From contig CBDCVR010000014.1 in the NCBI GenBank assembly GCA_965223155.1, forward strand, positions 576,001 through 640,000: a DNA stretch of 64,000 nt. The letters run 5' to 3'. Both the position numbers and the translations under genes were made by a program. The notes below the pieces were generated by a model that saw nothing but the letters and a program-made list of their open reading frames with translations, had not been told where the DNA came from and ran no database searches. The stretch comes from Candidatus Multivoradales bacterium (GTDB lineage Bacteria; Acidobacteriota; Thermoanaerobaculia; Multivoradales; JAHEKO01). The first letter of the stretch is position 1; each line of letters opens with the position of its first letter. This document shows positions 4,404 through 18,619 of this stretch, one piece after another.

Positions 4404-6176
4404 CTACTCCTCCACGTTCCTGGCTTGCTCGACCAGGAGTTCAAAGAAGGGATCGTCAAGCCGTTCGGCCGGCAAGTCGATCGCGTTCTGGATGGCCAGC
4501 GCCTCGGCGAGATCCCAAGGCGCGTCCCGCGCCCAGACCGCGACGTCCGTCGATTGGTCCGGCGTCAGCTTGCGATGATGTGTCCGGAAAGCGGCAGGGG
4601 GCGCGTTCAAGAACTCGCCCAAAGCGCGGTGGTACGCATGTCGCGATTCACCGTCGGGCTCCCGTTCGTACAGGACATAGTCGACCGTCATGAGATGGGA
4701 CAGCCGAAGGTGCGGCGCGAGTAAGGACTGCTTGAGCCAGCGCAGGCCGGCGACGTCCGCACCGGCAACTCGATCCCGAGGCAGAGTGGAGACGAGCAGG
4801 ACGGCCGCCTGTTCCATGTCGCGACGCTCCCGATCCTCCTGGATCAGCCGGAGCGCGAATTCGAAGTTCCGTATCCGGGCCTGCGCTTTGGCACCCGGCT
4901 CTCCCCTCCCTACGGCGGGTCCCAAGCCCAGGGCGCGAAATATCCGGTGCGGCCGTTCGGAGCTGGCACGGTAGACCAACAGGAACGTCTCATCGACACC
5001 TGCCTCGGCACCCCATGTGACGTAGGCGTAGTTGAAGCCACCGATGGCGAGACAGCCGACCGTCCCCCACGCGGCCAGCCGCCGGCTCGACAGGCGGCGG
5101 ATCGACAGGGAAATCAAAAGCGCGAGCGCCGCCAAGATCATCGCACCTCGCGCCCAAGCTAGGGTTACCTGGAACGAGAGAACGGCAAACCCAATCAGGA
5201 CGAAGGCGGACAGAAAGACCGGCAGGAGGCTCCGCGAGACCAGGCCGCGCAGGATCGACCAGCCGGCTACGACAGTCATCGGCAGGGAGAGGGTGACGGG
5301 CAAGCTCAGCCAGTACCAAAGAGCCGGCGGTAGGTTCCGATGCCCGAGGGTCACCCGCGGGCGTCCGAGCACCGAAACGAACTCTGCGCTTCCGAGCCAG
5401 TTGCCGAAGTCGAGTACGGCAGATCCCGGTCCCAGATACCACCATAAGACCGGAAACGCGCAGACCAAAGTCGCCGGGCCAAGGCCCCAGGCGGTCAGAG
5501 GCGTCCACCATCGGAACGATTTCTGAGGCTTGGAGCTCGGGCCTTTACTCTGGCCGTTGCGGGCTAGAGCGACGACCACGGGCGCCGCGAGTGTCGGGAG
5601 TCCGAAGACGAAGAGATACGAGGGATGGAGCAAGACTCCGACCGCGTGCGTCGCCACCAGAAACCAGCCTGAGCGGCCCGAGGGTCGGGAAACGAAGCAA
5701 ACGAGCGCCAGTACACCCAGCGCGCTCCAGCAGAACGCTCCGTAGTAGGGACTGTAGGCGCGGGAGAGATGAACCGCGGGCGGAAAGGTCGAAACCAGAG
5801 CGGCAGCGAGCAGCCCGACGCCATGGCCGCCGAATCGCCTGCCGGCAGCATGGATCCCGACAAGGAGAAGGGCCAGGAACGGCAAGTTGACGTAGCGCGC
5901 CGTGGAGTCAGCCTGCTTCCCCATCCAGAGGAAAGGAAGCGTCAGCAATTGGTAGGTGGGAGGCCTGCCGCTCAGGCTGAGTTGCTCAAGCGAGGGGTTC
6001 CCGGCCCGAAGATGCTCGTCGAAGACGACGAGCTCGCTCAAGTAGGCGCGGCTGTTCGGAGCCCGAACGACGTGCTCGGAGGTCTTCACCCACCAGATAT
6101 TGACGAGTGCCTGGCCGACGAAAAGGCCGCAGAGCAACAAAGCTGCGGTGCGGCCGTTCATCGGTTCTTTCCCCAT
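4404..6176 (-). CDS. Polytopic GT-C-fold glycosyltransferase (ArnT/PMT_2-like); start at 6176 or 6161
   Basis: Multiple TM helices; RPPTYQLLTLPF and ARYVNLPF...AGRRFGGHGVGLLAAALVSTFP are typical of PMT_2/GT83-like proteins. Confidence 0.7.
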   Translation of the reverse strand: MGKEPMNGRTAALLLCGLFVGQALVNIWWVKTSEHVVRAPNSRAYLSELVVFDEHLRAGNPSLEQLSLSGRPPTYQLLTLPFLWMGKQADSTARYVNLPFLALLLVGIHAAGRRFGGHGVGLLAAALVSTFPPAVHLSRAYSPYYGAFCWSALGVLALVCFVSRPSGRSGWFLVATHAVGVLLHPSYLFVFGLPTLAAPVVVALARNGQSKGPSSKPQKSFRWWTPLTAWGLGPATLVCAFPVLWWYLGPGSAVLDFGNWLGSAEFVSVLGRPRVTLGHRNLPPALWYWLSLPVTLSLPMTVVAGWSILRGLVSRSLLPVFLSAFVLIGFAVLSFQVTLAWARGAMILAALALLISLSIRRLSSRRLAAWGTVGCLAIGGFNYAYVTWGAEAGVDETFLLVYRASSERPHRIFRALGLGPAVGRGEPGAKAQARIRNFEFALRLIQEDRERRDMEQAAVLLVSTLPRDRVAGADVAGLRWLKQSLLAPHLRLSHLMTVDYVLYEREPDGESRHAYHRALGEFLNAPPAAFRTHHRKLTPDQSTDVAVWARDAPWDLAEALAIQNAIDLPAERLDDPFFELLVEQARNVEE

Positions 6177-6179
6177 CGA

Positions 6180-6191
6180 GATGCTAGCATC
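6180..6191. promoter_or_regulatory. Perfect palindrome GATGCTAGCATC, giving a TAGCAT -10 box on both strands between divergent genes
   Basis: Seen directly in the 31-bp gap between the divergent starts at 6176 and 6208. Confidence 0.5.
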
Positions 6192-6207
6192 CGCGCTTCG
6201 AATCGAG

Positions 6208-7539
6208 ATGTCCAACGCAAGGCGAAGACGGCTCCGTACCTCGGGTGTCGCAGTCGGCGGCGCCGTCATCGCGCTGGCGGTTGGGTTCCTGCTGCAACAG
6301 ATGGCAACGGAGCCTCCGGAGGCCGATCCGGAAGCAGAATTGCGCCGGCTCAGAAGCCTGCCCTACGCCTCCGTCACCACGGCTTCGTCGGAGGCCGAGG
6401 GAGTCGTCATCCATCAAACCGGACGTGCTCAGCCCGGCCTCAACCTCTACTCGTCCCGGGTCGCCAACGAAGTCGTCCTCGAGACCCTGGAAGGACAGGT
6501 GGTGAAGCGATGGTCTTTCCCCGACGACGCCAGGAGGCAGCCCGCGGAGACGAACCAACGAGGACAGGACAAGGGCGTGGTCGTCACGGCCGCGCTCCTG
6601 GCCGACGGCACCCTGGTTGCCGTTCGCCGGCTGACCGACCTGACGAAGTTCGACGCCGACGGCGGAGTGCTCTGGCGGCGAGACCTGCCAGTGCATCACG
6701 AACTCGTAGATCTCGGCGACGGAACGCTGCTGACCTGGTCACGGAGAGTCGTGCCGTATCGGTCGATCGAGGTTATCGACCAGCCTCTGCTGCGGCTTCG
6801 CGCTTCGGATGGAACCGTGCTCGAGCAGTGGAATCCGAGCGACCATCTCGCCGAGCTCCGCAATCTCGTTGGGTCTCACTGGACGTTCGATGCGGCGCTC
6901 GACCGCCTAAACCAAGCGGGTGAACCAGCGGAGAACGAGCGGCGCCGCGGCGCGATCCGGATCAAGAACGACTCTCCGGTAGACCTCTTCCACGCCAATA
7001 CGATCTCGATCTTGCCCAAGAACACGCGCGAAGCCCGAGATCGCCGTTTCGCGGCCGGGGGCCTCCTTCTCTGCTTCCGCAACCTAGATCTACTGGTCAT
7101 CTTGGACTGGGCCACCAAAGAGCTCATCTGGCATTGGGGGCCGGGAGTTCTTTCGCGGCCGCACCATCCCACCTTCCTGGCCAACGGCAACGTCCTGGTC
7201 TTCGACAACGGTGTGGCTAGTAGACGGAGCCGGGTCCTCGAGGTCGACCCGGTCTCGGGTCGAATCCTATGGAGCTACGAAGGTGAATCCTCGGAGCGGC
7301 TTTTCTCGCGGACTATGGGCTGCGCCCAGCGACTTGCCAATGGCAACACCTTGATCTGTGAGTCGAATCGGGGCCGCGTGATCGAGGTCACCCCCGCGGG
7401 TGAGGTCGTCTGGGAGTGGCTGGGCCCGATCGTGTCCTCAGCCCAGGCGCGGAAAGTGCAGAAACAGCTCCGTGACCCCCCCTATCGCGAGATGATCTAT
7501 CGAATGGATCGGCTGCCGGTTTCCGTCGCCGACGGCTGA
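6208..7539 (+). CDS. Arylsulfotransferase (ASST)-family beta-propeller with an N-terminal membrane anchor
   Basis: Motifs VHHEL, DLFHANTISILP, SRPHHPTFLANGNVLVFDNG and GCAQRLANGNTLICES. Start re-called at ATG 6208 (MSNARRRR followed by a TM helix). Confidence 0.85.
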   Translation: MSNARRRRLRTSGVAVGGAVIALAVGFLLQQMATEPPEADPEAELRRLRSLPYASVTTASSEAEGVVIHQTGRAQPGLNLYSSRVANEVVLETLEGQVVKRWSFPDDARRQPAETNQRGQDKGVVVTAALLADGTLVAVRRLTDLTKFDADGGVLWRRDLPVHHELVDLGDGTLLTWSRRVVPYRSIEVIDQPLLRLRASDGTVLEQWNPSDHLAELRNLVGSHWTFDAALDRLNQAGEPAENERRRGAIRIKNDSPVDLFHANTISILPKNTREARDRRFAAGGLLLCFRNLDLLVILDWATKELIWHWGPGVLSRPHHPTFLANGNVLVFDNGVASRRSRVLEVDPVSGRILWSYEGESSERLFSRTMGCAQRLANGNTLICESNRGRVIEVTPAGEVVWEWLGPIVSSAQARKVQKQLRDPPYREMIYRMDRLPVSVADG

Positions 7540-7722
7540 CTCTCTTGAGCGAACGCTGTCCGGCAAGCCAGATCGTCTCACTTGCGTTTGTAGAAAAAGG
7601 CCGCCATCGGCTGAATGGGCAGGGCACGCGGCCCAATCCGCCACAGGCCTGCCGGACGTCGGGCGCGCGCCGAGGAGGTCGGCTACGAGCCGCAACGGCT
7701 TCAGGTACTTGCAACGATCAGG

Positions 7723-8760
7723 CTAGACCTTCGCCGGAACCTTCTCCCAGTCGGACCGGGGCGCGTCCGTGGCGATCGCCAGGCCGCCCTCGGCGCCGAC
7801 GAAGACCGGATCCTCGACCCGGCGCACGGTGCCGCCGCCGTACTCGTCCAGGGTGAGCTCCAACGCCTCGGCCAGGCCGCGGATAAGGGCCGAGCCGCCC
7901 GACAGGATGACGTGGTTTCTCACCTCGGCCTGGTACTCGGGCTCGACCCGCGCCAGAAGCTCGAGCATGGTCTCGGTGATCGGAGGCAGCAGGCTCTCGC
8001 AAGCGGTCCGCATCTCGGTCGTGATGTCCACCTCGGTGGGCTTGCCGTTGAGCGGGACCGTGACCTTGACCGGCTTCTTGGGCTCACCTACGAAGCTGTA
8101 TTTTTCTTTCCACTCGCGCACCATGTGCTCGGAGAACGCCACCTGTGGGTGGGCGGCCGCAACCAGCTTTTCGAGCTGCTCGTCTACCGAGTCGCCCGCC
8201 TGCATCAGGGTGCGCTGATCTTCCTCGGTCGGGAACCGACCCTTCATTACGCAGAAATCTGTGGTGCCGGCGCCGACGTCGATGATAAGCGCGTGCAGGA
8301 GGGCATCGAGACCGTAGGCGACCGCGAACGGCTCGGAGACGATCATCAGCGAATCGACCAGGCCGGCCAAGACGTTGCGTAGCTGCTGCTTGTTGACCCG
8401 CATCGCCTCGGCCGGTACCCCGACCACGGCTCGGACCCCTTCGGGGTTCTTGATGCCCGCGCGCTTCAGAAGGTGGCCGATGATCTCGCGCACCGCGCGC
8501 AGGTCCTTGTCCGAGCCTTCCTTGATGAGGCCGCGCTCGAGGGGACGGTGGAGGTCAAGCATGACGCGGTTCTTGATCGCGTCTTCGCCGATCAGGATCT
8601 TCTTTTTCAAGACCTTGGTGGCGACCATGTCGGCCGGCCAGCCGACGAAGCTATCGACCACGTACTTCTGGTCATCGGACGTGGCGATCGAGCTCCGGGA
8701 CGTTCCGAGGTCGATCCCGACGTAGGTGACGCCACCGGCGCCGGCTTCTTTTGCACACAT
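7723..8760 (-). CDS. mamK: MamK-family actin-like ATPase, 345 aa
   Basis: Actin motifs VGIDLGTSRS, IIDVGAGTTD and ILSGGSALIRGL. MamK-specific stretches recalled from Magnetospirillum MamK are also present: VVGVPAEA, IVSEPFAVAYGLD, P.EEDQ.TL..AG..VDE.L, KE.YSFVG, ACESLLP.I.E, EPEYQA.V and DP.F.G..G. The symbol denotes family membership only. Confidence 0.9.
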   Translation of the reverse strand: MCAKEAGAGGVTYVGIDLGTSRSSIATSDDQKYVVDSFVGWPADMVATKVLKKKILIGEDAIKNRVMLDLHRPLERGLIKEGSDKDLRAVREIIGHLLKRAGIKNPEGVRAVVGVPAEAMRVNKQQLRNVLAGLVDSLMIVSEPFAVAYGLDALLHALIIDVGAGTTDFCVMKGRFPTEEDQRTLMQAGDSVDEQLEKLVAAAHPQVAFSEHMVREWKEKYSFVGEPKKPVKVTVPLNGKPTEVDITTEMRTACESLLPPITETMLELLARVEPEYQAEVRNHVILSGGSALIRGLAEALELTLDEYGGGTVRRVEDPVFVGAEGGLAIATDAPRSDWEKVPAKV

Positions 8761-8775
8761 GGTTGAGTTCCCCTC

Positions 8776-9834
8776 TTACGCGCTCTCGTTGAGTTGGCGA
8801 GCGTAGCTCGAAATGCCCCGGAATAGGGCCTCAGCAATGTACTGCCGATACCCCGGGGTCATCAAGAGTCTGGCTTCGTTGGCATTGGAAAGGCAAGAGA
8901 CTTCGGCGAGGATCGCCGGCATCTCGGTTCCGGTCAGGACAATGAAGGGCGCCTTCTTGACGCCCCGATTCTGCAACCCGGGATTGACCCGGCGTAGCGA
9001 ATTGTAGAGCGCCCGCTGCACCGAGCGGGCAAGCTGACGCGACTCGTCGTTGCGAACCCCGGCATAGACCTGATCCAGGACCCGGCGATAGTCGGCCATC
9101 GAATAGCCGGCGTCCTGGTTCTCGGCGGCCGCCAGCTCGGTCAAGTACGGATCTTCGGTGGGTCCGAGGTAGTAGGTCTCGATGCCCCGCACCTCGCGCG
9201 CTTCGATGTAGTTGAGATGGATCGAGACAAAGAGATCGCCTTCGGTCTCGTTGGCGTACCGGGCGCGGTCTTCGAGGGGCACGAACACATCCCGCTTGCG
9301 AGTCATCGCCACTTCGAAGGACGAGTCCTCGAGCAAGACTGTCAGTCGCTTGGCGATGTCGAGTGCCAGGGTCTTTTCGGCCAGCCCATTGGGACCCTGG
9401 GTGCCGGGGTTCTTGCCGCCGTGGCCTGGATCCAGAACGATTCGCCGCACGCCCAGCGGAAAGACGGCGCGGTCGAGAGCGGCGGGCGTCGCCAGCGGCG
9501 CCTCGGCCGAGCCCGTGCCGGACTCGGGTCCACGCGGCGCCGGCAGGTCCTGCTCAAAGCCGGCAAGGCCACTGGTGAGCTGGACATCGGCGGCTACCCG
9601 CTCGGCGATCTCGGTCGAGCGCAGATCGATCCAACGGTCGGCGACCTCCGAGCCCAGGTAGGACGCGCCGAAGAGCGCCACCGGCAGGGTCAGGAAAAAG
9701 ACGATGCGGGCGAACGTCTGGGCACGCTTGGTCTTGGTCGGCCGGCGAAACCGGTAGCGGCCGGTCATGACGTCCCGGTTCTCCTGCACGGCCTCCCGAA
9801 TCAGGCGGCGCTTCAGTTGGGCCATCTCACTCAT
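8776..9834 (-). CDS. N-acetylmuramoyl-L-alanine amidase (Amidase_3) with a basic cytoplasmic N-terminus and a single TM anchor
   Basis: Zinc/catalytic motifs IVLDPGHGG, EKTLAL, DLFVSIHLN and AILAEVS; TM helix FARIVFFLTLPVALFGASYLG; 15 bp upstream of mamK, with GAGGGG as ribosome-binding site in the gap. Confidence 0.93.
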   Translation of the reverse strand: MSEMAQLKRRLIREAVQENRDVMTGRYRFRRPTKTKRAQTFARIVFFLTLPVALFGASYLGSEVADRWIDLRSTEIAERVAADVQLTSGLAGFEQDLPAPRGPESGTGSAEAPLATPAALDRAVFPLGVRRIVLDPGHGGKNPGTQGPNGLAEKTLALDIAKRLTVLLEDSSFEVAMTRKRDVFVPLEDRARYANETEGDLFVSIHLNYIEAREVRGIETYYLGPTEDPYLTELAAAENQDAGYSMADYRRVLDQVYAGVRNDESRQLARSVQRALYNSLRRVNPGLQNRGVKKAPFIVLTGTEMPAILAEVSCLSNANEARLLMTPGYRQYIAEALFRGISSYARQLNESA

Positions 9835-10023
9835 GACGCACGGCTTGACTCTACGCGAGGACGATCTTGTACCCAGTGAAGCGTTGCACTTCCAGCCGCA
9901 ACGCGGGGCACCGCGCCCACGGCTCTGAAGATGGTATTACAAGACGTCGATACGTTGGTGGCGAGGCCGCGCAACCGGTGGGACCAAGGCGATCCGCGGC
10001 CTCGGGATCCGGATCTGCGGCCC

Positions 10024-10066
10024 GGCCAGGATCCGGCCGGGATCCAGCCAAGATCCAGTAGGATCG
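10024..10066. repeat. Degenerate 11-bp direct repeats with a GATC core (GGCCAGGATCC, GGCCGGGATCC, AGCCAAGATCC, AGTAGGATC)
   Basis: Read directly from the intergenic region between the amidase-mamK operon and the M24 peptidase. Confidence 0.7.
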
Positions 10067-10091
10067 GCCGGCACGACCGAAGGAGGACTCG

Positions 10092-11282
10092 ATGCTTGCC
10101 GAGCGCGTAGCCGACATCCAGAACGCCCTGGCCGAGATGGAAGCCGACGGGTGGCTTTTTGCCTGTTTTCAGAACAACGATCCGATCTCGCTCGAGCTTC
10201 TGGGCCTGGGCGGCGACCATCTCGTCAGCCGCCGGTGCTACTACCTGATCCCGGCCCAGGGCGAGCCGCGCCGGCTGGTGCACAAGCTGGAACCGGCCCA
10301 GCTGGACCACTTGCCGGGCAGCAAGAGCTCGTATCTATCCTGGCGCGAACACCGCGCCGAGTTCGAAAAGCTCCTTGCCGGCATGAAGAAGATCGCCGCC
10401 CAGTACTCGTCTGACAACGCACTGCCTACGATCTCGCGCCTGGATGCGGGCACGGCCGAGCTCATCCGCTCGTTGGGTATCCAAATCGAGTCGGCGGCCG
10501 AGCTGGCGCAGCGCTTCGCCGCGGTCTGGTCCGAAGAACAGCTCAACGGGCACCGCAGAGCCTGCACCCATCTCCACGAGATCGTCAAACTCGCCTTCGC
10601 CGAGGTGGCCCAGGTGCTCAAGGCCGGAGCCGAGGCGGACGAATACACCATCCAGAAGTTCATCCTGAACCAGATGGATCAGCGCGGCCTGTGGACCGAC
10701 TCACCACCGATCGTGGGCCGCAACGAGCACGCGGCGGATCCCCACTACCAGCCGACCGCCGAGGTGACGTCGCCGATTCGCAAGGGCGACTTCCTGCTGA
10801 TCGACCTCTGGGCCAAGGAGAAGGCCGCGGCCGATTCCATCTACGGCGACATCACCTGGTGCGGTGTCTGTGACGTCGCCCCCACCGACAAGCAGGTGGA
10901 GCTCTTCTCCACCGTGGTCCAAGCTCGCGACGCGGCCTGGGAGCTCATCTCGAGCCGGTACCCGGACAAGTCGGTGCGCGGGTTCGAGGTCGATGACGCT
11001 TGCCGCGAAGTGATCGAGGCCGCCGGCTACGGCGAGTTTTTCATCCACCGAACCGGACACTCGATCGGCACCCAGACCCACGGCCAGGGCGCCAACATGG
11101 ACAACCTCGAAACCCACGATACGCGCCGGCTGGAGCCGATGACGGGCTTTTCCATCGAGCCGGGGATTTACCTCGAAGGCGACTTCGGCGTGCGCACCGA
11201 GATCAACGTGGCTCTACCTCCCGACGCCGCCGAGATCACCGGCGGCGACCGGCAGATGGAGCTCCTCCGGCTCTTGGCCTAG
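10092..11282 (+). CDS. M24-family Xaa-Pro aminopeptidase
   Basis: Metal-ligand motifs LLIDLWAK, YGDITW, HRTGHSIG, FSIEPGIY and GVRTE; GGAGG ribosome-binding site. Confidence 0.92.
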   Translation: MLAERVADIQNALAEMEADGWLFACFQNNDPISLELLGLGGDHLVSRRCYYLIPAQGEPRRLVHKLEPAQLDHLPGSKSSYLSWREHRAEFEKLLAGMKKIAAQYSSDNALPTISRLDAGTAELIRSLGIQIESAAELAQRFAAVWSEEQLNGHRRACTHLHEIVKLAFAEVAQVLKAGAEADEYTIQKFILNQMDQRGLWTDSPPIVGRNEHAADPHYQPTAEVTSPIRKGDFLLIDLWAKEKAAADSIYGDITWCGVCDVAPTDKQVELFSTVVQARDAAWELISSRYPDKSVRGFEVDDACREVIEAAGYGEFFIHRTGHSIGTQTHGQGANMDNLETHDTRRLEPMTGFSIEPGIYLEGDFGVRTEINVALPPDAAEITGGDRQMELLRLLA

Positions 11283-11400: not shown

Positions 11401-12339
11401 ATGGGCCGGAACCGGACAGGCGGCGCGGACGTTTCGAGTGAGTCGACACCGGACGGGCCACCGCGCGGGCTCGGTCCGCGGGGCAAGCCCGAGCGGCTCC
11501 TCGAAGCGCACCCGACCGATCCGGCCTGGCGCGCCGACGCCCTGGCCGGCAGCCGTCACAGCCGCTTAGCGGACGAGGTTCGCCCGCCGCTCGCGGACTC
11601 CGATCCGGTCCGCGCCCAGCAGCTCTGCGCTCGGATCACCCGCGAGGTGCTGCGGGATTTCGCCCCCGGCCTCGTCTTCCTTCGCGGGGCTGACCGGAAC
11701 CGAGTACAGGCTCTCACCGCCTTCGCTCGAACCCTTTTCGATTTCGCCCGGCAGCGGGGACTCGAAGGAGACCGTCTGGCGCTTCTCAACAATTGGGAGT
11801 TCCAGACCGAAGAGGCTCTCTCGCCAGGCCGCGGGACCCACCCGCCGAGCCAGCCGGTCTTCGTCGCGATGGCCTCGGCCGGGGCCGTCCGCCCCTGGCC
11901 GCGGACGGCTCTGGACCGCCTATTTGACCTGGCACGGAGCGAGGCCGTGGGGCGCCCCGTTCCGCCTCGGGAGCTGGCCACGACACTCCTCGCCTGCCTA
12001 TGGCACCCGGAAGCGGAGGTCGATCCGGCATCGAGGGACCTCCTCGAGGCAGCGCTCACCGAGCGGCCGGGCGCGGGGCGCGGGCGGCCGTCCCAAGAAG
12101 GCGGCGACCCGTCTCCCTCGGGCGAGCGTCCGCCACGTGGACCGAACCGGGCCTGGCGCCGTGCGGGCGCCTACGCCGAGGGCGTCCTGCGGTATCGGCG
12201 GCTTCGGAGCGGGACGGCTCGAAGCCGGCTGGATTCGGATCCGGAGGGAGCCGGGGCCGCGAGGCCAAGCCACGAGGGGGAGCCGATCGGTCTCGGGACG
12301 CGGCTCCGTCTACTCGTCGCCGCCCGCCTCGGCCGGTGA
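11401..12339 (+). CDS. Degenerate squalene/phytoene synthase-like (HpnC-like) protein; start uncertain
   Basis: ALTAFARTLFDFA...GDRLALLNNWE...QPVFVAMA resembles the N-terminal half of SQS_PSY. The Asp-rich motifs are missing and the C-terminal half is low complexity. Confidence 0.5.
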   Translation: MGRNRTGGADVSSESTPDGPPRGLGPRGKPERLLEAHPTDPAWRADALAGSRHSRLADEVRPPLADSDPVRAQQLCARITREVLRDFAPGLVFLRGADRNRVQALTAFARTLFDFARQRGLEGDRLALLNNWEFQTEEALSPGRGTHPPSQPVFVAMASAGAVRPWPRTALDRLFDLARSEAVGRPVPPRELATTLLACLWHPEAEVDPASRDLLEAALTERPGAGRGRPSQEGGDPSPSGERPPRGPNRAWRRAGAYAEGVLRYRRLRSGTARSRLDSDPEGAGAARPSHEGEPIGLGTRLRLLVAARLGR

Positions 12340-13062
12340 CGGCCGCTCGGCGGAGGCCGGATCGCCCTGCGAGTCGGGAGCCCGATCGGGCGCGGGCGCG
12401 TCGAGCGGCTCGACCAGGATCTTGGCTGCGGCCCGCATCCCCAAGTTGACACGCCCGCCGGAAGCGGAGTCCACCACCATCGAGTCCGCCACCTCGGTCA
12501 CCGAGGCGATCCGGATCGTGGTTCCGATCTTCACCCCCTCGCGCTCGAGCGTCTGGAGAAATTCGGGGCTCTGGTCCAGAACCCGGGCCACGGCCACGGC
12601 GCGGCCCTGGCGGAACCGGGTCAGCGGCAGGTAGTCGAGCACCGGCACGTCGCCGCCGGCCGTGGGGATCGGATCGCCGTGGGGATCGGCTTCGGGCCGT
12701 CCCAGCATCTCGTCCATGCGCTCGACAAGGCTGTCCGAGATCGCGTGCTCCAGGCGCTCGGCCTCGCCGTGGACCTCGCTCCAGTCCATGCCCATGACCT
12801 CGACCAGGAAGAGCTCGATCAGGCGGTGGCGGCGCAGGACGTGAAGCGCCAGTTGGCGGCCTGAATCGGTCAGGCGGACACCGCTATAGGGCTCGTAGTC
12901 GACGAGACCGCTGCCCGCCAGGGTCTTGACCATGGTGGTCACGGTCCCCGGCGTCAGCTCCAGCGCGCCGGCGATGACTCCCATGCCCACCCGCTTCCCG
13001 GGCGCTCGCTGCTCTTCGAGCAGGATCTGCTTCAGGTAGTCCTCGACGGTGCTGGTTGCCAT
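12310..13062 (-). CDS. mntR: DtxR/MntR-family metal-dependent repressor with a C-terminal FeoA/SH3-like domain
   Basis: TVEDYLKQI, LRRHRLIELFL, EVHGEAERLEHAIS, DPHGDPIP. Confidence 0.92.
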   Translation of the reverse strand: MATSTVEDYLKQILLEEQRAPGKRVGMGVIAGALELTPGTVTTMVKTLAGSGLVDYEPYSGVRLTDSGRQLALHVLRRHRLIELFLVEVMGMDWSEVHGEAERLEHAISDSLVERMDEMLGRPEADPHGDPIPTAGGDVPVLDYLPLTRFRQGRAVAVARVLDQSPEFLQTLEREGVKIGTTIRIASVTEVADSMVVDSASGGRVNLGMRAAAKILVEPLDAPAPDRAPDSQGDPASAERPSPAEAGGDE

Positions 13063-13083
13063 TGAATCGGAGGGATCGGGAGC

Positions 13084-13995
13084 TCAGGGGCAGTCCAGCG
13101 GCCGCGCCTCGACGAAGCCCTTGGGCTCGAGTTGCAGTGTTTGGTGATCGATGCCGAAGCGGGAGCGGAGCATCGTGCTCGCCTCCTCCAACACTTCGCC
13201 GTGTGGCTTGCCTTCGACGACCACGTGAGCCGAAAGCGATTCGACGCCACTGGTGATCGTCCAAACGTGAAGATCGTGGACGCCGCGGACGCCCACGAGA
13301 TCCAGCAAGGCGCGACGGACCTCATCGACGTCGATGTGAGGAGGCGCGCCTTCCATCAAGACCCTGACAGCCTCGGTCACGAGATGCCAGGAAGAATAGA
13401 CCACCAGGGCGGCGATGAGAAACGATGCGACGGGATCGGCCCAGGTCCACCCAAGGGTCCAGATGAGCGCGCCCGCAAGCAACGCCTGGACGCTGCCGAG
13501 GGTGTCCATCGCGACGTGCAGCCAGGCGCCGCGAAGATTGAGATTCGCGTCCTTGCCACGGCGCAAGATCGCCAGGCTCGCGAGGTTGATGGCGAGGCCG
13601 CCGGCTGCGATGGCCATCATCGGGCCGCTCGCGACTTCAGCCGGCTGACGCAGCCGTTCGAAGCCCTCGAGCACGATGAAGGCGGAGATGGCCAGGAGCG
13701 CGGCACCGTTGACCAGAGCGGCCAGAATCTCGGTGCGGTGGTAGCCAAAAGTGCGTCTGGCGTCGGCCGGACGCCGGGCGATACGGAGGGCGAAGAAGCT
13801 GAGCAGTAGCGCCGCGACGTCCGAGAGCATGTGGCTGGCATCGGCCAGAAGTGCCAGCGAGTTGGTCCAGAGACCGCCCACGAACTCGGCGACCATGTAG
13901 ATCGCCGCCAGGGCCGCCGCCCAGCCCAGCCGGTGGCCGTGGGCATGCGCCGAGCCGGCCGGCGCCTCGGGCCCGTGGTGGTGCGCGTGGGCCAT
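13084..13995 (-). CDS. czcD: Cation diffusion facilitator, CzcD/ZitB (Zn/Co/Cd) type
   Basis: His-rich N-terminus; SLALLADASHMLSD, TFGYHRTEILAA, NLRGAWLHVAMD, VHDLHVWTI. Confidence 0.93.
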   Translation of the reverse strand: MAHAHHHGPEAPAGSAHAHGHRLGWAAALAAIYMVAEFVGGLWTNSLALLADASHMLSDVAALLLSFFALRIARRPADARRTFGYHRTEILAALVNGAALLAISAFIVLEGFERLRQPAEVASGPMMAIAAGGLAINLASLAILRRGKDANLNLRGAWLHVAMDTLGSVQALLAGALIWTLGWTWADPVASFLIAALVVYSSWHLVTEAVRVLMEGAPPHIDVDEVRRALLDLVGVRGVHDLHVWTITSGVESLSAHVVVEGKPHGEVLEEASTMLRSRFGIDHQTLQLEPKGFVEARPLDCP

Positions 13996-14066: not shown

Positions 14067-15374
14067 GTGCTGTCGTTTGCCACATTGTTTCTGGGATTGA
14101 CTCTCGGCACCCATGCGGTCGAGGTGGTCGCGCCTCCGGGGGTGGCGTCGATCGAGCTCCGCGTGGACGGCCGCCTGTGCGCTCGCCTGGAAAGGGAACC
14201 CTGGCGGGGGAACTGCGACTTCGGCGACGAGCTCTTGCCGCGCGAGCTTACCGCCACCGCCTTCGACGGCGACGGAGGCGAGCTCGCAGTCGGGAGGCAG
14301 TGGATCAACACGCCGCGGCAGCCGGCCGAGGTCTCGGCGGTGCTCGAAGCTGAGCCCGGAACGCCCCTTCGCCGCGTTGCCCGGCTGCGCTGGGAGTCGC
14401 TCGCCGGTTCGACGCCCCCGGCGGTCCGTGCCTGGCTCGACGGCGTCGAGCTGAAGGTCGAGAATCCCGCGGAGATCCAGCTACCCGAAGTCGATCCGGA
14501 GCGACTCCATCTGTTCCGTGCCGAGCTCGAGTTTCCGGGCAACGTCGTCTCCTCGGTCGAGGTACCGTGGGGCGGCAGCTTCTCGGACCAGACCGACAGC
14601 AAGCTAACCGCGATCGTGGTCCAAGCCCGCCTTGGACGGCTCAAGCCGGAAGCGCTGGCCGGACGGCTCTTGAGCGACAGGCGGCCGCTCGAAGTGGTCG
14701 CGATCGAGAAGGCGCCGGCCGAGATCGTAATCGTGCGGGACCGGTCGGCCGATACGGCGTTCGCCCAGATGGATCTCGAGCGCGCGATCTCGGCCAGTCC
14801 AATGGGCATCGCGGGCGCGCGTTCGCAAAGCGGCAGGCTCCTGGCCGCGCGCGACCAAGATTGGCGTCTCCAGTTCTTCTGGCCCGTTGCCGTCCGGCGT
14901 GCCGGCAAGTCGGGCCCCTTCGATCTCTTCCGGCACTCGCCAGCATTTCACCCGACCGATGGCACCGTGTTCGACTTCCTGACCCGGGTCGAGTTTCCGC
15001 GCGACTTGGAGGGCCCCCAACGGCTGACCGACGCACTCGCCGTTGCCGGGGTCTCGGTCGCGTCGCTCAAGAGCAGACGCGCGGCCGTGCTGCTGGTCGG
15101 CCCGAACCCCACCGACAGTGGAGATTTCCCACCCCGGCTTGCCCGCCGGTATCTCGAGTCGATCCAGGTGCCGATGGTGGTCTGGGCCACCCGGCGTACC
15201 GCCGGTGAAGCCTGGGGTAAGGCCCGCAGGCTCCGTTCCCGTCGCGACGTGGAGCTGGCCTGGCTCGATCTCCTGGAGTCGTTGGAGCGCCAACGCATCG
15301 TCTGGGTGCGGGGAGCCCATCTGCCACAACAGATCGAGCTCATGCCGACCCGAGGCGTCGAGCTGGTGCGATGA
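14067..15374 (+). CDS. Secreted protein with an Ig-like (Big) N-terminal domain and a degenerate VWA-like C-terminus
   Basis: The N-terminal VASIELRVDGR...EPWRGNCDFG...RELTATAFDGDGGELA resembles the Ig domain of 58115..59335; the C-terminal QRLTDALAVAG...RRAAVLLVG is VWA-like. Confidence 0.7.
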   Translation: MLSFATLFLGLTLGTHAVEVVAPPGVASIELRVDGRLCARLEREPWRGNCDFGDELLPRELTATAFDGDGGELAVGRQWINTPRQPAEVSAVLEAEPGTPLRRVARLRWESLAGSTPPAVRAWLDGVELKVENPAEIQLPEVDPERLHLFRAELEFPGNVVSSVEVPWGGSFSDQTDSKLTAIVVQARLGRLKPEALAGRLLSDRRPLEVVAIEKAPAEIVIVRDRSADTAFAQMDLERAISASPMGIAGARSQSGRLLAARDQDWRLQFFWPVAVRRAGKSGPFDLFRHSPAFHPTDGTVFDFLTRVEFPRDLEGPQRLTDALAVAGVSVASLKSRRAAVLLVGPNPTDSGDFPPRLARRYLESIQVPMVVWATRRTAGEAWGKARRLRSRRDVELAWLDLLESLERQRIVWVRGAHLPQQIELMPTRGVELVR

Positions 15375-16825
15375 GCCTGCTTCGAGGGAACCGGGACCAG
15401 GAGACTGGCCCGATCAAGCTCGACCGGCGGCGGCACGCCAAGCCCGAGCACAGCCGGCGAACCGCAAGGCTCCGCCCGAGCACCTGGTCGGTGACGGGGT
15501 CCGCGCTGGCACCGGCTCTTGCCGTCCTGCTGCTAAGCGCCTTTCCGCCTCAGGCTCCTGCCGTCCAGGAGGATCCGGCTGCTGGCGAGTCCTCCACCGA
15601 AGGCGCTCCGCCGCCTCCGGAGGCCGCCGAGCCCCGGCTCCTGGGAAAGCCCTCGGCCCTCGAGCCGCCGCAGGCGACCCGCTCGACGGTCCCGGTGGAC
15701 CGTGGCACCAGGCTACTCGAGCGGCCTGACCGGGGAGCGCCCATTCTGGTCACGGTCCGCGCGCCCACCGAACTCGAGATCCTGGACCGAAACGACGGCT
15801 GGATTCAGGTGCGATACGAGGCCTGGAGGGGCTGGTTTCGGCCGGAAGAGAGCGGCCCGAGCCTGCTCGACCACCAGGGCTGGCAGGTCGAGCTCACCAC
15901 CGACGGCGATCTGCGCTTCACCAGCGCTCCCGTAACGACGCGCAACCTGACCGAGGAACGGCTGGCTCGAATCACGCCGTTTCTGCGCGACGGAGGCCGC
16001 ACCCTGAACTTTGGTCCGTACCGGTTGCTCACTGACGTCACCGACGCGGACCTGCTCGACGGCTTGCGCTCGGTCGCCGAGCAGCTCGCGCACGCCTACC
16101 AGAGCCGCTACGGCCTTGCGCTGGCCGAGTCGCCTCCCGAATCCATCGTCCTCTTCGCCGGAGAGGAAGCGTACAGAAGATACGCAACCGAGGTCCCCGA
16201 GCTCGCGGGGCTGTCGAGCCTGGGCCATCAGAGCCATGGACTGGCCGTGACCTTCGCCGGTCAGCGCTCGTCAGAGCGCATCCGGCGCATCCTGGTCCAC
16301 GAGCTCACCCACCTGGTCAACCGGCGAGCGCTGCCCTTGGTCGTGCCCAGTTGGATCGAGGAGGGCCTGGCCGAGGATCTAGCCTTCAGCCGCGTCGACG
16401 GTCAGGGCCGGCTGGTGCCCCGCTCGCTGAGTGGCACGACCGTACGCTCGGAGGGGAAGTTGACCATCACCGGCGGCTTTGCCTCGCTTGCCTCTCTGCT
16501 GCGTCTGGTCCGGTCTCCGTCGTGGCCGGCGCCCACAACCCTGGTCGAAACCGGTTGGGAGGACTTTGTACGGCCCGAGCTACGGCCCGCCTACTACACG
16601 CAGGCGGCGTTCTTCGTCCGGTTTCTTCTGGATGGTGCTGGCGGCCGGTACCGCGACGGCTTTCACGACTACCTCCAGGCTCTCGCCCGCGGCGAGGGCG
16701 GAGCCGGAGGCGAGCTCTGGCCGCGACTCGCCGACGAGCCCGAGCGCGTCGAGGACGGCTATGAGGTCTGGCTCCACCAGCAGGCGGACGCCTTCGGCAT
16801 CGTCGTCACCCAGCCGGCTCGCTGA
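15371..16825 (+). CDS. SH3b-like domain plus gluzincin (HExxH...E) metallopeptidase-like protein (DUF1570/MA-type)
   Basis: LEILDRNDGWIQVRYEAWRGW (SH3b); LVHELTHLVN...PSWIEEGLAE; YYTQA; ATGA overlap with the upstream gene. Confidence 0.78.
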   Translation: MSLLRGNRDQETGPIKLDRRRHAKPEHSRRTARLRPSTWSVTGSALAPALAVLLLSAFPPQAPAVQEDPAAGESSTEGAPPPPEAAEPRLLGKPSALEPPQATRSTVPVDRGTRLLERPDRGAPILVTVRAPTELEILDRNDGWIQVRYEAWRGWFRPEESGPSLLDHQGWQVELTTDGDLRFTSAPVTTRNLTEERLARITPFLRDGGRTLNFGPYRLLTDVTDADLLDGLRSVAEQLAHAYQSRYGLALAESPPESIVLFAGEEAYRRYATEVPELAGLSSLGHQSHGLAVTFAGQRSSERIRRILVHELTHLVNRRALPLVVPSWIEEGLAEDLAFSRVDGQGRLVPRSLSGTTVRSEGKLTITGGFASLASLLRLVRSPSWPAPTTLVETGWEDFVRPELRPAYYTQAAFFVRFLLDGAGGRYRDGFHDYLQALARGEGGAGGELWPRLADEPERVEDGYEVWLHQQADAFGIVVTQPAR

Positions 16826-18453: not shown

Positions 18454-18619
18454 GTTCGCAGTCTAGCTCGATCCTTCGGTTGAGAGTCGCTACGCGGCCC
18501 CAGCCGCCACAGCTCGTCTTCCCAACCCGAGGACGAGCCGTCGGCGGGACCCGGCGCCCCACCGCGCCGCCCCGAGCGATCCGCGTCGACCGGCGGAGCG
18601 CTTGCTAGGATCCCGCTCG

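What the first reader, a model, noticed from the sequence alone, without database searches (positions are those of the whole stretch)
7723..9834. Orphan MamK-type actin co-transcribed with a membrane-anchored peptidoglycan amidase: candidate new cytoskeletal cell-wall module
Seen: a 345-aa actin-fold protein with intact phosphate-1, phosphate-2 and adenosine motifs. It carries signatures I recognise from magnetosome MamK rather than MreB (SEPFAVAYGLD, PTEEDQRTL, KEKYSFVG, EPEYQA). It lies 15 bp downstream of an Amidase_3 gene on the same strand and has its own ribosome-binding site. No mamA/B/E/I/J/M/O/P/Q, mreC/D or parR is recognisable in the 64 kb. Established: MamK forms dynamic filaments that position magnetosomes and is normally encoded in the mamAB cluster, whereas MreB is normally linked to mreCD. 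Inference: in a probably non-magnetotactic acidobacterium, a MamK-like filament may position a cell-wall hydrolase for division, shape or appendage/organelle placement. That would be a non-magnetosome and possibly ancestral role for the family.
Basis: partly seen in the sequence, partly recalled or inferred. Interest (0 to 1): 0.88.

Follow-up and report, generated by a model that had tools for sequence, protein, structure and literature searches.

The report
MamK-like actin paired with wall amidase
A bacterial actin related to the magnetosome protein MamK is almost always encoded directly behind a membrane-anchored cell-wall amidase whose short cytoplasmic tail is predicted to dock onto it, which points to an undescribed filament-guided wall-remodelling unit in non-magnetic bacteria.

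Summary
A 352-aa Amidase_3 gene (8776-9834, minus) sits 15 bp upstream of a 345-aa actin-fold gene (7723-8760, minus). The actin is MamK-like, not MreB: NCBIfam MamK 385 bits (cutoff 400) against MreB 68, and the best solved structures are MamK at 267 bits. It belongs to its own clade, separate from bona fide MamK. The genome has a separate mreBCD operon and no Mam family over cutoff. The amidase is directly upstream of the actin in 123 of 127 testable loci across two sister clades, and no third gene is conserved. In 81 genomes of the class, all 47 actin-positive genomes have the orthologous amidase adjacent and none of the 34 actin-negative genomes has it. [quoted passage not shown] Its cytoplasmic N-terminal helix carries a conserved motif (N19 invariant in 72 of 72), while its TM helix and linker vary. 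Co-folding that tail with the actin scored 0.85 against 0.00 for the best control. Best reading: a two-gene module in which the filament binds and positions a periplasmic amidase, analogous to bactofilin-LmdC. No wet-lab or RNA evidence exists. I rate it a new variant of a known kind, interest about 0.7.

The parts
8776..9834 (-). Gene for a 352-aa bitopic N-acetylmuramoyl-L-alanine amidase (Amidase_3), first gene of the pair
   Evidence: ORF. Pfam Amidase_3 165.6 bits. AF2 model mean pLDDT 88.1. Best structural matches are E. coli AmiA 8c2o (TMt 0.84, 32% id), AmiC 4bin and AmiB 3ne8.
9715..9834 (-). Amidase residues 1-40: predicted cytoplasmic tail, with helix 2-23 followed by a basic stretch
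   Evidence: AF2 helix 2-23 with pLDDT about 88-92. R/K-rich stretch at residues 26-37, read from the sequence. This was the partner chain in the co-fold, score 0.85 against best control 0.00.
9769..9816 (-). Conserved tail motif, residues 7-22 (LKRRLIREAVQENRDV); candidate actin-docking peptide
   Evidence: Most conserved block outside the catalytic domain. N19 invariant in 72 of 72. A homologous motif ILRGVYEENL is present in the sister clade. Predicted contact residues are 4, 7-8, 10-16, 18-20, 22-23, 25, 27.
9655..9714 (-). Amidase residues 41-60: hydrophobic transmembrane segment (signal anchor)
   Evidence: Hydrophobic run FARIVFFLTLPVALFGASYL read from the sequence. It lies within the AF2 long helix 34-87. 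Equivalent hydrophobic 19-mers were found in 41 of 41 sister-clade amidases examined.
9445..9654 (-). Amidase residues 61-130: variable periplasmic stalk and linker
   Evidence: Low conservation and many gaps. pLDDT below 50 at residues 90-96.
8782..9444 (-). Amidase residues 131-351: catalytic Amidase_3 domain of the longer AmiA/B/C type
   Evidence: H138, E153, H206 and E311 invariant in 72 of 72. Foldseek covers 226-228-residue AmiA chains.
8761..8775 (-). 15-bp intergenic spacer with a GAGGGG ribosome-binding-like site (8770-8775)
   Evidence: Read directly. In 39 of 45 orthologous pairs with both ORFs complete, the spacing between the amidase stop and the first possible actin start is -4 to +9 bp.
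7723..8760 (-). Gene for a 345-aa MamK-like actin-fold ATPase, second gene of the pair
   Evidence: Member of a 40-row amidase-linked clade with SH-aLRT 98. Predicted tail-binding surface is residues 124-125, 128, 138-141, 145, 149, 152, 154-155, 174-176, 329, 332-334, 337, 340-341.
9835..10091 (.). Divergent intergenic region between the amidase and an M24 peptidase gene (10092-11282, plus strand); presumed promoter region of the pair
   Evidence: Gene layout. The sigma-70 scan found no consensus promoter here, so this assignment is inference only.

Best explanation
This is a conserved two-gene module. The first gene encodes a bitopic inner-membrane amidase. It has an N-terminal cytoplasmic helix of about 23 residues, a basic stretch, one transmembrane helix, a variable periplasmic stalk, and an AmiA/B/C-type Amidase_3 domain with all metal-binding and catalytic residues intact. 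The second gene encodes a MamK-like actin that presumably polymerises with ATP in the cytoplasm. The amidase's cytoplasmic helix (motif h-K/R-x-x-L-L-R-x-A/V-V/Y-x-E-N-h) docks into a groove on the actin formed by the SEPFAVAYG segment (residues 138-155) and the C-terminal helix (329-341). By analogy with actin and ParM, this groove is the cleft between subdomains IA and IIA. The filament thereby dictates where along the membrane the amidase acts on peptidoglycan, or whether it acts at all. The module is accessory. The same genome has mreBCD, ftsA and two other long Amidase_3 proteins, and relatives lose both genes together. Shown by computation: gene order, co-occurrence, conservation of the tail, and the controlled co-fold. 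Inferred: polymerisation, membrane topology, amidase activity, the binding cleft, and the cellular role (local wall remodelling for shape, separation or envelope maintenance).
For: Adjacency: the amidase is directly upstream on the same strand in 48 of 50 genome loci (the other 2 begin at the actin), in 6 of 6 further Acidobacteriota genomes including two with actins only 46-49% identical, and in 69 of 80 metagenome loci (7 of the 11 misses have under 250 bp upstream). That makes 123 of 127 testable. No third gene is conserved; the commonest neighbour cluster is in 17 of 136 loci. Co-occurrence in 81 genomes of the class: 47 have the actin. Of these, 46 have an amidase hit at E <= 2.1e-61 next to it, and the 47th (G431) has it split over contig ends beside the actin. 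The 34 actin-negative genomes reach only 3.6e-42 to 2.8e-30, on a paralogue in longer frames. Tail: residues 11-20 are the best conserved stretch outside the catalytic domain, whereas the TM helix and linker vary. N19 is invariant in 72 of 72, and the motif persists in the sister clade. Co-fold of the actin with tail residues 1-40: ipSAE 0.85, 0.86 and 0.85; best of 3 controls 0.00; runs agree in at least 89% of contacts; partner pLDDT at least 67. In the tool's calibration this mark was reached by 58 of 80 solved complexes and 2 of 110 mismatched pairs. Contacting positions change together between the clades: tail 16 is V (38 of 43) versus Y (16 of 22), actin 333 is A (45 of 45) versus M (22 of 22), and actin 337 is D (42 of 45) versus Y (20 of 22). 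Enzyme: H138, E153, H206 and E311 are invariant and the fold is closest to AmiA/AmiC/AmiB. Actin: D17, E143 and D161 are invariant. All amidase-linked actins form one clade with SH-aLRT 98. [quoted passage not shown]
Against: There is no experimental or expression evidence; no RNA run holds the locus. The co-fold is the model's own confidence. Helical peptides in the equivalent cleft of eukaryotic actin and ParM are common in solved structures (recalled), so the pose could be learnt. My own unpaired alignments were used, so the calibration holds only roughly. The clade-specific paired changes reflect a single split, so they are one event and not statistics. If the cleft is the one used for subunit-subunit contacts along the filament (recalled for actin, ParM and MamK), the tail could bind only monomers or filament ends. 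That would change the mechanism from lateral tethering to end-capping or regulation of assembly. I could not run a signal-peptide predictor, so cleavage after the hydrophobic segment, which would free the enzyme from the tail, is not excluded. Four loci have the actin without an amidase (L120, L131, L134, L137). Two relatives carry an in-frame TGA in the actin (G119, G433). Polymerisation has not been tested for this clade.
Confidence: 0.6

Rival explanations
1. The polarity is reversed. The amidase serves mainly as the membrane and cell-wall anchor for a filament whose real job is something else, such as positioning another cargo or acting as a structural scaffold. Wall hydrolysis is secondary or vestigial.
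For: The same adjacency, co-occurrence and co-fold evidence fits. The actin has no evident membrane-binding segment of its own, as read from its N-terminus. In L137 a non-amidase ORF directly upstream of a related actin ends in a similar motif (KIILDEVFENNIRL), which hints that the peptide is a portable adaptor.
Against: The catalytic and metal-binding residues of the amidase are invariant in 72 of 72, which argues that enzyme activity is selected for. No other conserved gene that could encode a cargo lies nearby. The L137 motif is a single case, and the loose pattern is expected by chance roughly 0.1 times in the region scanned (background 0.088 per 1000 aa).
Confidence: 0.15
2. The two genes are merely co-regulated neighbours with no physical contact. 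The N-terminal region is an unusually long export signal or plain membrane anchor, and the actin acts independently.
For: E. coli AmiA and AmiC are exported with N-terminal twin-arginine signals (recalled). The window protein has RR at residues 30-31 ahead of the hydrophobic segment. I ran no signal-peptide predictor.
Against: The twin arginine is not conserved; several orthologues in the alignment have no RR before the hydrophobic segment. The conserved block lies 20-30 residues before the hydrophobic segment, forms a confident helix and contains an invariant Asn, none of which is typical of signal-peptide n-regions. Strict joint presence and absence in 81 genomes and the co-fold at 0.85 against 0.00 are hard to explain by co-regulation alone.
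Confidence: 0.12
3. It is a genuine MamK of a cryptic or silent magnetosome system.
For: MamK is the best family and structure match. Silent magnetosome clusters in non-magnetotactic bacteria have been reported (PMC9938234, seen in a search listing only).
Against: The score is below the MamK cutoff (385 against 400). The protein lies in a clade separate from the bona fide MamK representatives. No MamI, MamP, MamQ, MamB, MamU or MamW scores over cutoff in a 98.66%-complete genome. The nearby CDF is ZitB-like. No mam-like neighbours are conserved in 136 loci.
Confidence: 0.01
4. It is an MreB paralogue working in the ordinary elongasome, as public annotations ('rod shape-determining protein MreB') imply.
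For: Pfam MreB_Mbl is its best Pfam hit at 79 bits, and sources name its relatives MreB.
Against: The MreB NCBIfam models score 50-68 bits against cutoffs of 293-515. A canonical mreB-mreC-mreD operon exists elsewhere in the genome (MreB 492 bits). The tree puts this genome's MreB far outside.
Confidence: 0.03
5. It is a ParM/Alp-type DNA-segregation actin of a mobile element.
For: The predicted docking of a short helix in the cleft resembles ParR on ParM (recalled).
Against: The context is chromosomal and conserved across a bacterial class. No ParR-like gene and no iteron or centromere-like repeats lie next to it. No ParM structure appears among the PDB hits at E <= 0.001.
Confidence: 0.02

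Closest known systems
MamK (magnetosome actin, Magnetospirillum; PDB 5JYG, 5LJV, 5LJW)
   Same: Closest characterised family. 267 bits with a single alignment stretch 7-340 to 7-340. Same length and same nucleotide-binding residues. NCBIfam MamK is the top model.
   Different: Below the family cutoff (385 against 400). Separate clade from bona fide MamK representatives. No magnetosome genes in the genome. The partner gene is an amidase rather than mamJ or other mam genes.
BeeR (Verrucomicrobiota three-stranded tubular actin; PDB 8R2N; PMC11929497, whole text read)
   Same: Also a MamK-related actin in non-magnetotactic bacteria; its function is stated in the paper to be unknown.
   Different: The window protein scores only 218 bits against a cutoff of 530 and 145 bits to 8R2N. 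It lacks the 30-50-residue disordered N-terminal extension described as the BeeR hallmark. The paper reports no partner gene for BeeR.
Bactofilin BacA with the M23 peptidase LmdC (Hyphomonas neptunium, Rhodospirillum rubrum; PMC10945521, passages read)
   Same: Same logic and architecture. Adjacent genes, widely co-conserved. [quoted passage not shown]
   Different: The polymer is an actin-fold ATPase rather than a nucleotide-independent bactofilin. The hydrolase is an Amidase_3 rather than an M23 endopeptidase. The tail element is a predicted helix, where LmdC has a beta-hairpin. Nothing has been tested experimentally here.
MreB-RodZ and FtsA-FtsN (actin-fold proteins that bind cytoplasmic parts of bitopic wall-synthesis regulators; recalled, with FtsA-FtsN seen in the search listing)
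   Same: A cytoplasmic actin-like polymer is coupled through a bitopic protein to periplasmic peptidoglycan enzymes.
   Different: Those adaptors are not enzymes themselves, and they couple to synthases. Here the bitopic partner is itself the hydrolase, and the actin belongs to a different family.
ParM-ParR (plasmid R1; recalled)
   Same: A short helical peptide of the partner is placed in the groove formed by the conserved hinge segment and the C-terminal helix of the actin fold, as the co-fold predicts here.
   Different: No DNA-binding adaptor and no centromere repeats. Chromosomal and vertically conserved. The cargo is a membrane enzyme.
AmiA/AmiB/AmiC with EnvC/NlpD; LytH-ActH; CwlD-GerS (regulated Amidase_3 enzymes)
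   Same: The catalytic domain is closest to AmiA 8c2o, AmiC 4bin and AmiB 3ne8, and is of the long form. LytH-ActH 7tj4 and CwlD-GerS 7rag are also matched. The predicted membrane anchoring resembles LytH (recalled).
   Different: No equivalog cutoff is met: CwlD 115/221.55, AmiC 112/700, AmiA 112/400, AmiB 87/532. There is no AMIN, LysM or SH3 targeting domain. Instead there is a conserved cytoplasmic tail and an actin partner. Whether a LytM-type activator is needed was not tested.

Membership tests
MamK family (NCBIfam NF040964) | Whole-protein score at or above the curated cutoff of 400 bits | tested here: not met
   385.0 bits and 384.8 bits in the genome search. The sister-clade representative P0123 scores 425 and a bona fide type (P0143) scores 508.
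MamK family | Encoded with magnetosome genes (mamI, mamB/M, mamP, mamQ and others) in a magnetotactic organism | tested here: not met
   No Mam family over cutoff in the genome. MamI and MamW had no positive control. No mam-like Pfam domains in the 64-kb window. The CDF at 13084-13995 is ZitB-like.
MamK family | Branches within the clade of MamK from magnetotactic bacteria | tested here: not met
   The window clade (SH-aLRT 99-100) is separate from the clade holding P0143 and the named MamK P0184 (96-98). These are quick trees with an unresolved backbone.
MamK family | Actin-fold ATPase with intact nucleotide-binding and catalytic residues, collinear with MamK | tested here: met
   Single alignment stretch 7-340 to 7-340 with 5JYG. 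D17, E143, D161, G163, G165, T166 and D168 invariant in 67 of 67. The roles of E143 and D161 in MamK ATPase activity are recalled.
MamK family | ATP-dependent polymerisation into filaments | not testable with these tools
   Needs purified protein (pelleting assay, EM).
MreB (NCBIfam PRK13927, TIGR00904; Pfam PF06723) | Score over the NCBIfam MreB cutoffs and linkage to mreC and mreD | tested here: not met
   67.8 bits against 293 and 51 against 365.75. Only the broad Pfam model is passed (79 against 27). The real mreB-mreC-mreD operon is on another contig.
BeeR (NCBIfam NF053558) | Score at or above 530 bits and a 30-50-residue disordered N-terminal extension | tested here: not met
   218.3 bits. 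The fold starts at about residue 12. The hallmark is taken from PMC11929497.
Amidase_3 (Pfam PF01520), N-acetylmuramoyl-L-alanine amidase | Domain score over the gathering threshold, with conserved zinc ligands and catalytic glutamate | tested here: met
   165.6 bits against 27. H138, E153, H206 and E311 invariant in 72 of 72. Fold matches AmiA, AmiC and AmiB. The assignment of these four residues as ligands and catalyst is recalled from the family, not computed.
AmiA / AmiB / AmiC / CwlD equivalogs (NCBIfam) | Score over the equivalog cutoff | tested here: not met
   CwlD 115.4/221.55, AmiC 112.5/700, AmiA 111.6/400, AmiB 86.6/532.
Cytoskeleton-hydrolase morphogenetic module (bactofilin-LmdC type) | Polymer gene and bitopic peptidoglycan-hydrolase gene adjacent and co-conserved | tested here: met
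   123 of 127 testable loci. Adjacent in 47 of 47 actin-positive genomes and absent from 34 of 34 actin-negative genomes of the class.
Cytoskeleton-hydrolase morphogenetic module (bactofilin-LmdC type) | The N-terminal cytoplasmic tail of the hydrolase binds the polymer directly | tested here: inconclusive
   The co-fold supports binding (0.85 against best control 0.00) and the tail motif is conserved. No binding measurement exists.
Cytoskeleton-hydrolase morphogenetic module (bactofilin-LmdC type) | The polymer is a bactofilin and the hydrolase an M23 peptidase | tested here: not met
   The polymer is an actin fold and the hydrolase is an Amidase_3. It therefore works like that module but is not a member of it.
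ParMRC-type segregation locus | Adjacent DNA-binding adaptor gene and centromere-like repeats | tested here: not met
   No conserved third gene. Only scattered short chance repeats in 7300-10300.

The most novel reading that the evidence does not exclude
The amidase-linked proteins are a distinct, previously unnamed subfamily of bacterial actins. Their filaments use a ParR-like end- or cleft-binding peptide on a transmembrane enzyme to move or pattern peptidoglycan cleavage from inside the cell. This would be polymerisation-driven positioning of a periplasmic hydrolase. Because this clade and other non-magnetotactic MamK-like clades surround the magnetosome MamK clade in the tree, MamK's magnetosome-positioning role would then be a later recruitment of an actin that first organised envelope proteins through short cytoplasmic tails.
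Probability: 0.2. Interest if true: 0.85.

Novelty: new variant of a known kind. Interest (0 to 1): 0.72.

Why it matters
Bacterial actins outside MreB, FtsA, ParM and MamK mostly lack known functions. The one characterised non-magnetotactic MamK relative, BeeR, has a structure but no known role. This finding gives a whole clade of MamK-like actins a concrete, testable partner and interface: a defined peptide of about 16 residues with an invariant asparagine, and a defined groove on the actin. The clade is present in 47 of 81 sampled genomes of one acidobacterial class, and a sister clade is common in metagenomes. If confirmed, it would be the first actin-family counterpart of the bactofilin-LmdC principle, in which a cytoplasmic polymer directly holds a peptidoglycan hydrolase through its tail. 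It would show that this design evolved at least twice, with unrelated polymers and unrelated hydrolases. It would also bear on where magnetosome MamK came from. On the practical side, public annotations that call these proteins 'rod shape-determining protein MreB' are misleading.

Tried and rejected
Expression and co-transcription: the look-up of sequencing runs listed no RNA holder. The four holders are DNA-type runs of one study.

Promoters and terminators: the sigma-70 and terminator scan found nothing convincing for the pair. This is no evidence either way for Acidobacteriota.

Magnetosome families: I did not know the NCBIfam accessions, so I probed numbers next to the MamK model. NF040962, NF040967 and NF040968 turned out to be unrelated families (near_HgcAB, cytc_ExtN, FeS_ExtO) and count for nothing. 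MamE, MamO, MamA, MamL and MamJ were not tested. The MamI and MamW searches rang in no control genome, so those blanks are weak.

Strict tail-motif pattern: it matched only 61 of 123 amidase frames because it was built from the window's own clade. I replaced it with alignment-based counts.

Exceptions: L120 has an M48/TPR-type gene upstream and no motif. L131 and L134 have about 480-500 bp upstream with no amidase hit and no motif.

Literature: searches for MamK + amidase + peptidoglycan + actin (2 papers, both irrelevant), actin-like + amidase + Acidobacteri (1 general review), MamK-like + non-magnetotactic (2, not relevant) and MamK + Thermoanaerobaculia (0) found no description of this pair. 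The library lacks most subscription journals, and supplements are closed. The gene-cluster list in the supplement of PMC10945521 could not be checked for actin-amidase pairs.


Full report
WHAT IS THERE. On the minus strand of the window, a 352-aa ORF (8776-9834) is followed after 15 bp by a 345-aa ORF (7723-8760). Reading the sequence directly, the first ORF ends with TAA at 8778-8776. A GAGGGG ribosome-binding-like hexamer occupies 8775-8770, and the second ORF starts with ATG at 8760-8758. The next gene downstream (6100-7539, plus strand, arylsulfotransferase-like) is convergent. The next gene upstream (10092-11282, plus strand, M24 peptidase) is divergent. The unit is therefore exactly these two genes.

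THE ACTIN. Pfam sees only the broad MreB_Mbl (79 bits) and Actin (50 bits) models. NCBIfam separates the families: MamK 385 bits (cutoff 400), BeeR 218 (cutoff 530), MreB 68 (cutoff 293). Against solved structures, the three best hits are the MamK entries 5JYG, 5LJV and 5LJW at 264-267 bits, aligned 7-340 to 7-340 in one stretch. By my hand count of the printed identity line, 127 of 334 positions are identical. Next come 8R2N, the BeeR structure (145 bits), and MreB (about 50 bits). In an alignment of 67 relatives, D17, E143, D161, G163, G165, T166 and D168 are invariant. These are the phosphate-binding and catalytic positions of the actin fold; the roles of E143 and D161 in MamK are recalled, not computed.

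NOT A MAGNETOSOME GENE, NOT MreB. The genome (4.0 Mb, 15 contigs, 98.66% complete) holds one MamK-like gene, this one. It also holds a canonical MreB (492 bits to PF06723) on another contig, followed there by MreC (124 bits) and MreD (28 bits), and an FtsA elsewhere. Whole-genome searches with magnetosome families gave nothing over cutoff: MamI no hit, MamP 35/300, MamQ 96/250, MamB 70/350, MamU 83/400, MamW no hit. For MamI and MamW no control genome rang either, so those two blanks are weak. The single MamB hit is a CDF transporter inside the window (13084-13995). It is ZitB-like (250 bits) and lies next to an MntR/DtxR-type regulator (12310-13062), which is ordinary metal homeostasis. A Pfam scan of my 51 rough ORF calls across the 64 kb showed nothing mam-, mreC/D- or parR-like, though roughly a third of the ORFs had no Pfam hit.

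PHYLOGENY. A search of 1.84 billion cluster representatives found 1149 relatives at E <= 0.001 and 184 at E <= 1e-30. In a quick maximum-likelihood tree of 85 rows, the window protein sits in a clade with its Thermoanaerobaculia orthologues (SH-aLRT 99). A Nitrospira-labelled MAG protein that NCBI names 'MamK family actin-like protein' is its neighbour (87). The bona fide MamK representatives form a different clade (96): P0143, at 508 bits to the MamK model, and P0184, named MamK in its source record. This genome's own MreB is on a long branch outside everything. A second tree of 61 rows included the loci described below. It placed every amidase-linked actin in one clade (SH-aLRT 98), made of the window's clade (17 rows, 100), a sister clade (22 rows, 98) and one basal sequence. 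The deep backbone is unresolved in both trees, so nothing can be said about which function is ancestral.

THE PAIRING IS CONSERVED. A scan of one genome per species returned 50 loci, all from Acidobacteriota or Thermoanaerobaculia-type MAGs, with actins 61-82% identical. The amidase lies directly upstream on the same strand in 48 of them. The other two contigs begin at the actin gene. Where both ORFs are complete, the spacing between the amidase stop and the first possible actin start is -4 to +9 bp in 39 of 45 pairs. In 401 sampled genomes of the phylum, 30 have the actin at E <= 1e-60. Six of these were fetched, including two from other classes with only 46% and 49% identity, and all six have the amidase directly upstream. 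A metagenome scan seeded with more distant MamK-like proteins gave 80 loci. Of these, 69 have the amidase upstream, 7 of the 11 without have under 250 bp of upstream sequence, and 4 are real exceptions (L120, L131, L134, L137). Overall that is 123 of 127 testable loci. Clustering all neighbouring ORFs within 4 kb in 136 loci found no third conserved gene; the commonest cluster is in 17 loci.

THEY COME AND GO TOGETHER. In 81 genomes of the class, 47 have the actin. Of these, 46 have an amidase hit at E <= 2.1e-61 at adjacent coordinates. The 47th (G431, 590 contigs) has the amidase split over two contig ends, one of them directly before the actin. The 34 actin-negative genomes have as their best amidase hit only 3.6e-42 to 2.8e-30, in frames of about 460-930 aa. 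This is the paralogue that every genome has. One of the 34, G024, is flagged unpublished; without it the count is 33. By family the pair is patchy: for example 15 of 18, 5 of 6, 4 of 9, 2 of 9, 0 of 11 and 0 of 4. It has therefore been lost, or possibly gained, repeatedly as a unit. In the window's genome there are two other Amidase_3 proteins, each about 630 aa with the domain at the C-terminus. The actin-linked enzyme is thus an accessory paralogue.

THE AMIDASE. An AlphaFold2 model (mean pLDDT 88) shows helix 2-23, a loop, a long helix 34-87 that contains the hydrophobic run 41-60, a disordered linker (lowest confidence at 90-96) and a compact domain 131-351. The stretch 26-37 is rich in Arg and Lys, which by the positive-inside rule puts the N-terminus in the cytoplasm. 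This topology is inferred. The catalytic domain matches E. coli AmiA (8c2o, TM-score 0.84 on the target, 32% identity), AmiC and AmiB, and covers their full 226-228 residues. It is therefore of the long form, which in those enzymes carries a regulatory helix (the regulatory role is recalled). H138, E153, H206 and E311 are invariant in 72 of 72 sequences.

THE TAIL. Across orthologues the TM helix and linker vary freely. Residues 7-22 (LKRRLIREAVQENRDV) are the best-conserved block outside the catalytic domain. In the sister clade, where the amidases are only 28-38% identical overall, the same position carries ILRGVYEENL followed by a basic stretch and a hydrophobic helix. N19 is invariant in 72 of 72. 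Position 12 is Leu in 36 of 43 of the window's clade and 21 of 22 of the sister clade. Position 8 is Lys or Arg in 43 of 43 and 20 of 22. A short cytoplasmic peptide conserved this deeply on a periplasmic enzyme calls for a cytoplasmic partner.

CO-FOLD. Folding the actin (67-row alignment) with amidase residues 1-40 (72-row alignment) gave ipSAE 0.85, 0.86 and 0.85. The three controls each scored 0.00: the partner replaced twice by unrelated proteins, and the actin replaced once. The runs share at least 89% of contacts, and the partner's pLDDT is at least 67. In the tool's calibration this mark was reached by 58 of 80 solved complexes and 2 of 110 mismatched pairs, and those counts hold only roughly because my own alignments were used. 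The tail residues in contact (4, 7-8, 10-16, 18-20, 22-23, 25, 27) coincide with the conserved motif. The invariant N19 touches actin 138-141 and 340-341. The actin surface comprises 124-128, 138-155 (the SEPFAVAYG segment), 174-176 and the C-terminal helix 329-341. By homology with actin and ParM this is the groove between subdomains IA and IIA. That assignment is my inference, since I had no coordinates.

Contacting positions differ between the two clades in step. Tail 16 is V (38 of 43) versus Y (16 of 22). Actin 333 is A (45 of 45) versus M (22 of 22). Actin 337 is D (42 of 45) versus Y (20 of 22). This is one evolutionary split, so it is consistent with a co-evolving interface but is not a statistical test.

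HOW IT MOST LIKELY WORKS. The actin polymerises in the cytoplasm. The amidase, anchored by one TM helix, hooks onto it through its N-terminal helix. The periplasmic amidase domain, on a flexible stalk, is thereby confined to the places the filament occupies or reaches, or is switched on and off by it. The closest documented parallel is bactofilin-LmdC. In that system an M23 peptidase with the same bitopic layout binds the polymer through residues 1-38 of its cytoplasmic tail, and the genes are neighbours in many phyla (PMC10945521, passages read). If the groove is the one buried in filament contacts, binding would be limited to ends or monomers, as for ParR on ParM (recalled). The module would then behave more like a polymerisation-driven carrier or an assembly regulator. 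I cannot decide between these with the tools available. The cellular purpose (shape, daughter-cell separation, envelope maintenance) is unknown. The module is dispensable for many relatives.

EXCEPTIONS AND A HINT. L120 has no amidase but nests inside the sister clade next to an amidase-linked sequence, which suggests a secondary loss. L137 and L134 fall outside the amidase-linked clade. In L137 the ORF directly upstream of the actin (224 aa, no amidase) ends with KIILDEVFENNIRL, which resembles the tail motif. The loose pattern occurs 0.088 times per 1000 aa in all frames of the metagenome loci, so about 0.1 chance hits are expected in the region scanned. This is a single case and only a lead. 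It suggests the docking peptide may be portable between partner proteins.

NOVELTY. MamK-related actins in non-magnetotactic bacteria are known. BeeR is one (PMC11929497, whole text read), and NCBI already names some relatives 'MamK family'. Cytoskeleton-hydrolase modules are also known. What I could not find in print is this pairing or this clade (searches; the library lacks most subscription journals, and supplements were closed). I therefore rate it a new variant of a known kind. All evidence here is computational.

Noticed in passing
Proteins P0133-P0161 (not in the window): A well-supported clade (SH-aLRT 99) of MamK-like domains, about 40% identical to the window actin, sits at the C-terminus of long proteins of 523-1232 aa. 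Their N-terminal extensions are K/E/S-rich, have no Pfam domain and no hydrophobic segment, and begin with a conserved coiled-coil-like stretch. Function unknown.
   Followed up: partly
Protein P0184 (CAX83788.1, named MamK by its source): A 768-aa protein with an N-terminal FtsZ (Tubulin plus FtsZ_C domains) fused to a C-terminal MamK-like actin domain. It is a tubulin-actin fusion from a magnetotactic source.
   Followed up: no
L137:4119-4793 (+), directly upstream of the actin at 4871-5965: A 224-aa non-amidase ORF ends with KIILDEVFENNIRL, resembling the amidase tail motif. This is a possible alternative partner carrying the same docking peptide. It is a single case with a modest chance expectation.
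   Followed up: partly
window 12310-13995 (-): An MntR/DtxR-type metal-dependent repressor with a FeoA domain lies next to a ZitB-like CDF transporter. This is a metal-homeostasis pair 2.5-4 kb from the amidase, and it is conserved near the pair only in the closer relatives.
   Followed up: yes
G119:C213:61134-62159 and G433:C8:969316-970323: The actin orthologue carries one in-frame TGA in each of two relatives. This could be a sequencing error, a pseudogene or recoding; it was not examined.
   Followed up: no
window 4404-6269 (-) and 6100-7539 (+): A 621-aa multi-hydrophobic-segment protein with no Pfam or NCBIfam hit. Its longest ORF overlaps by about 170 bp the start of the convergently placed arylsulfotransferase-like/BamB-like gene, so the true start of one of them is probably further in.
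   Followed up: no
window 19423-22746 (+) and 22743-24074 (-): A 1107-aa protein whose only Pfam hit is a spermine/spermidine-synthase domain at residues 698-848, next to a DUF6986 protein with a very strong match of 606 bits.
   Followed up: no
window 28981-35619 (+): A TetR regulator followed by an outer-membrane factor, a membrane-fusion protein and an AcrB-type RND pump (556 bits), then a GGDEF protein. This is an ordinary efflux operon.
   Followed up: no
window 11401-12339 (+), 14067-16825 (+), 17599-18873 (-): Several ORFs of 127-484 aa with high third-position GC but no Pfam or NCBIfam match. The 312-aa one at 11401-12339 is conserved next to the pair in 15 of the 50 related genome loci.
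   Followed up: no
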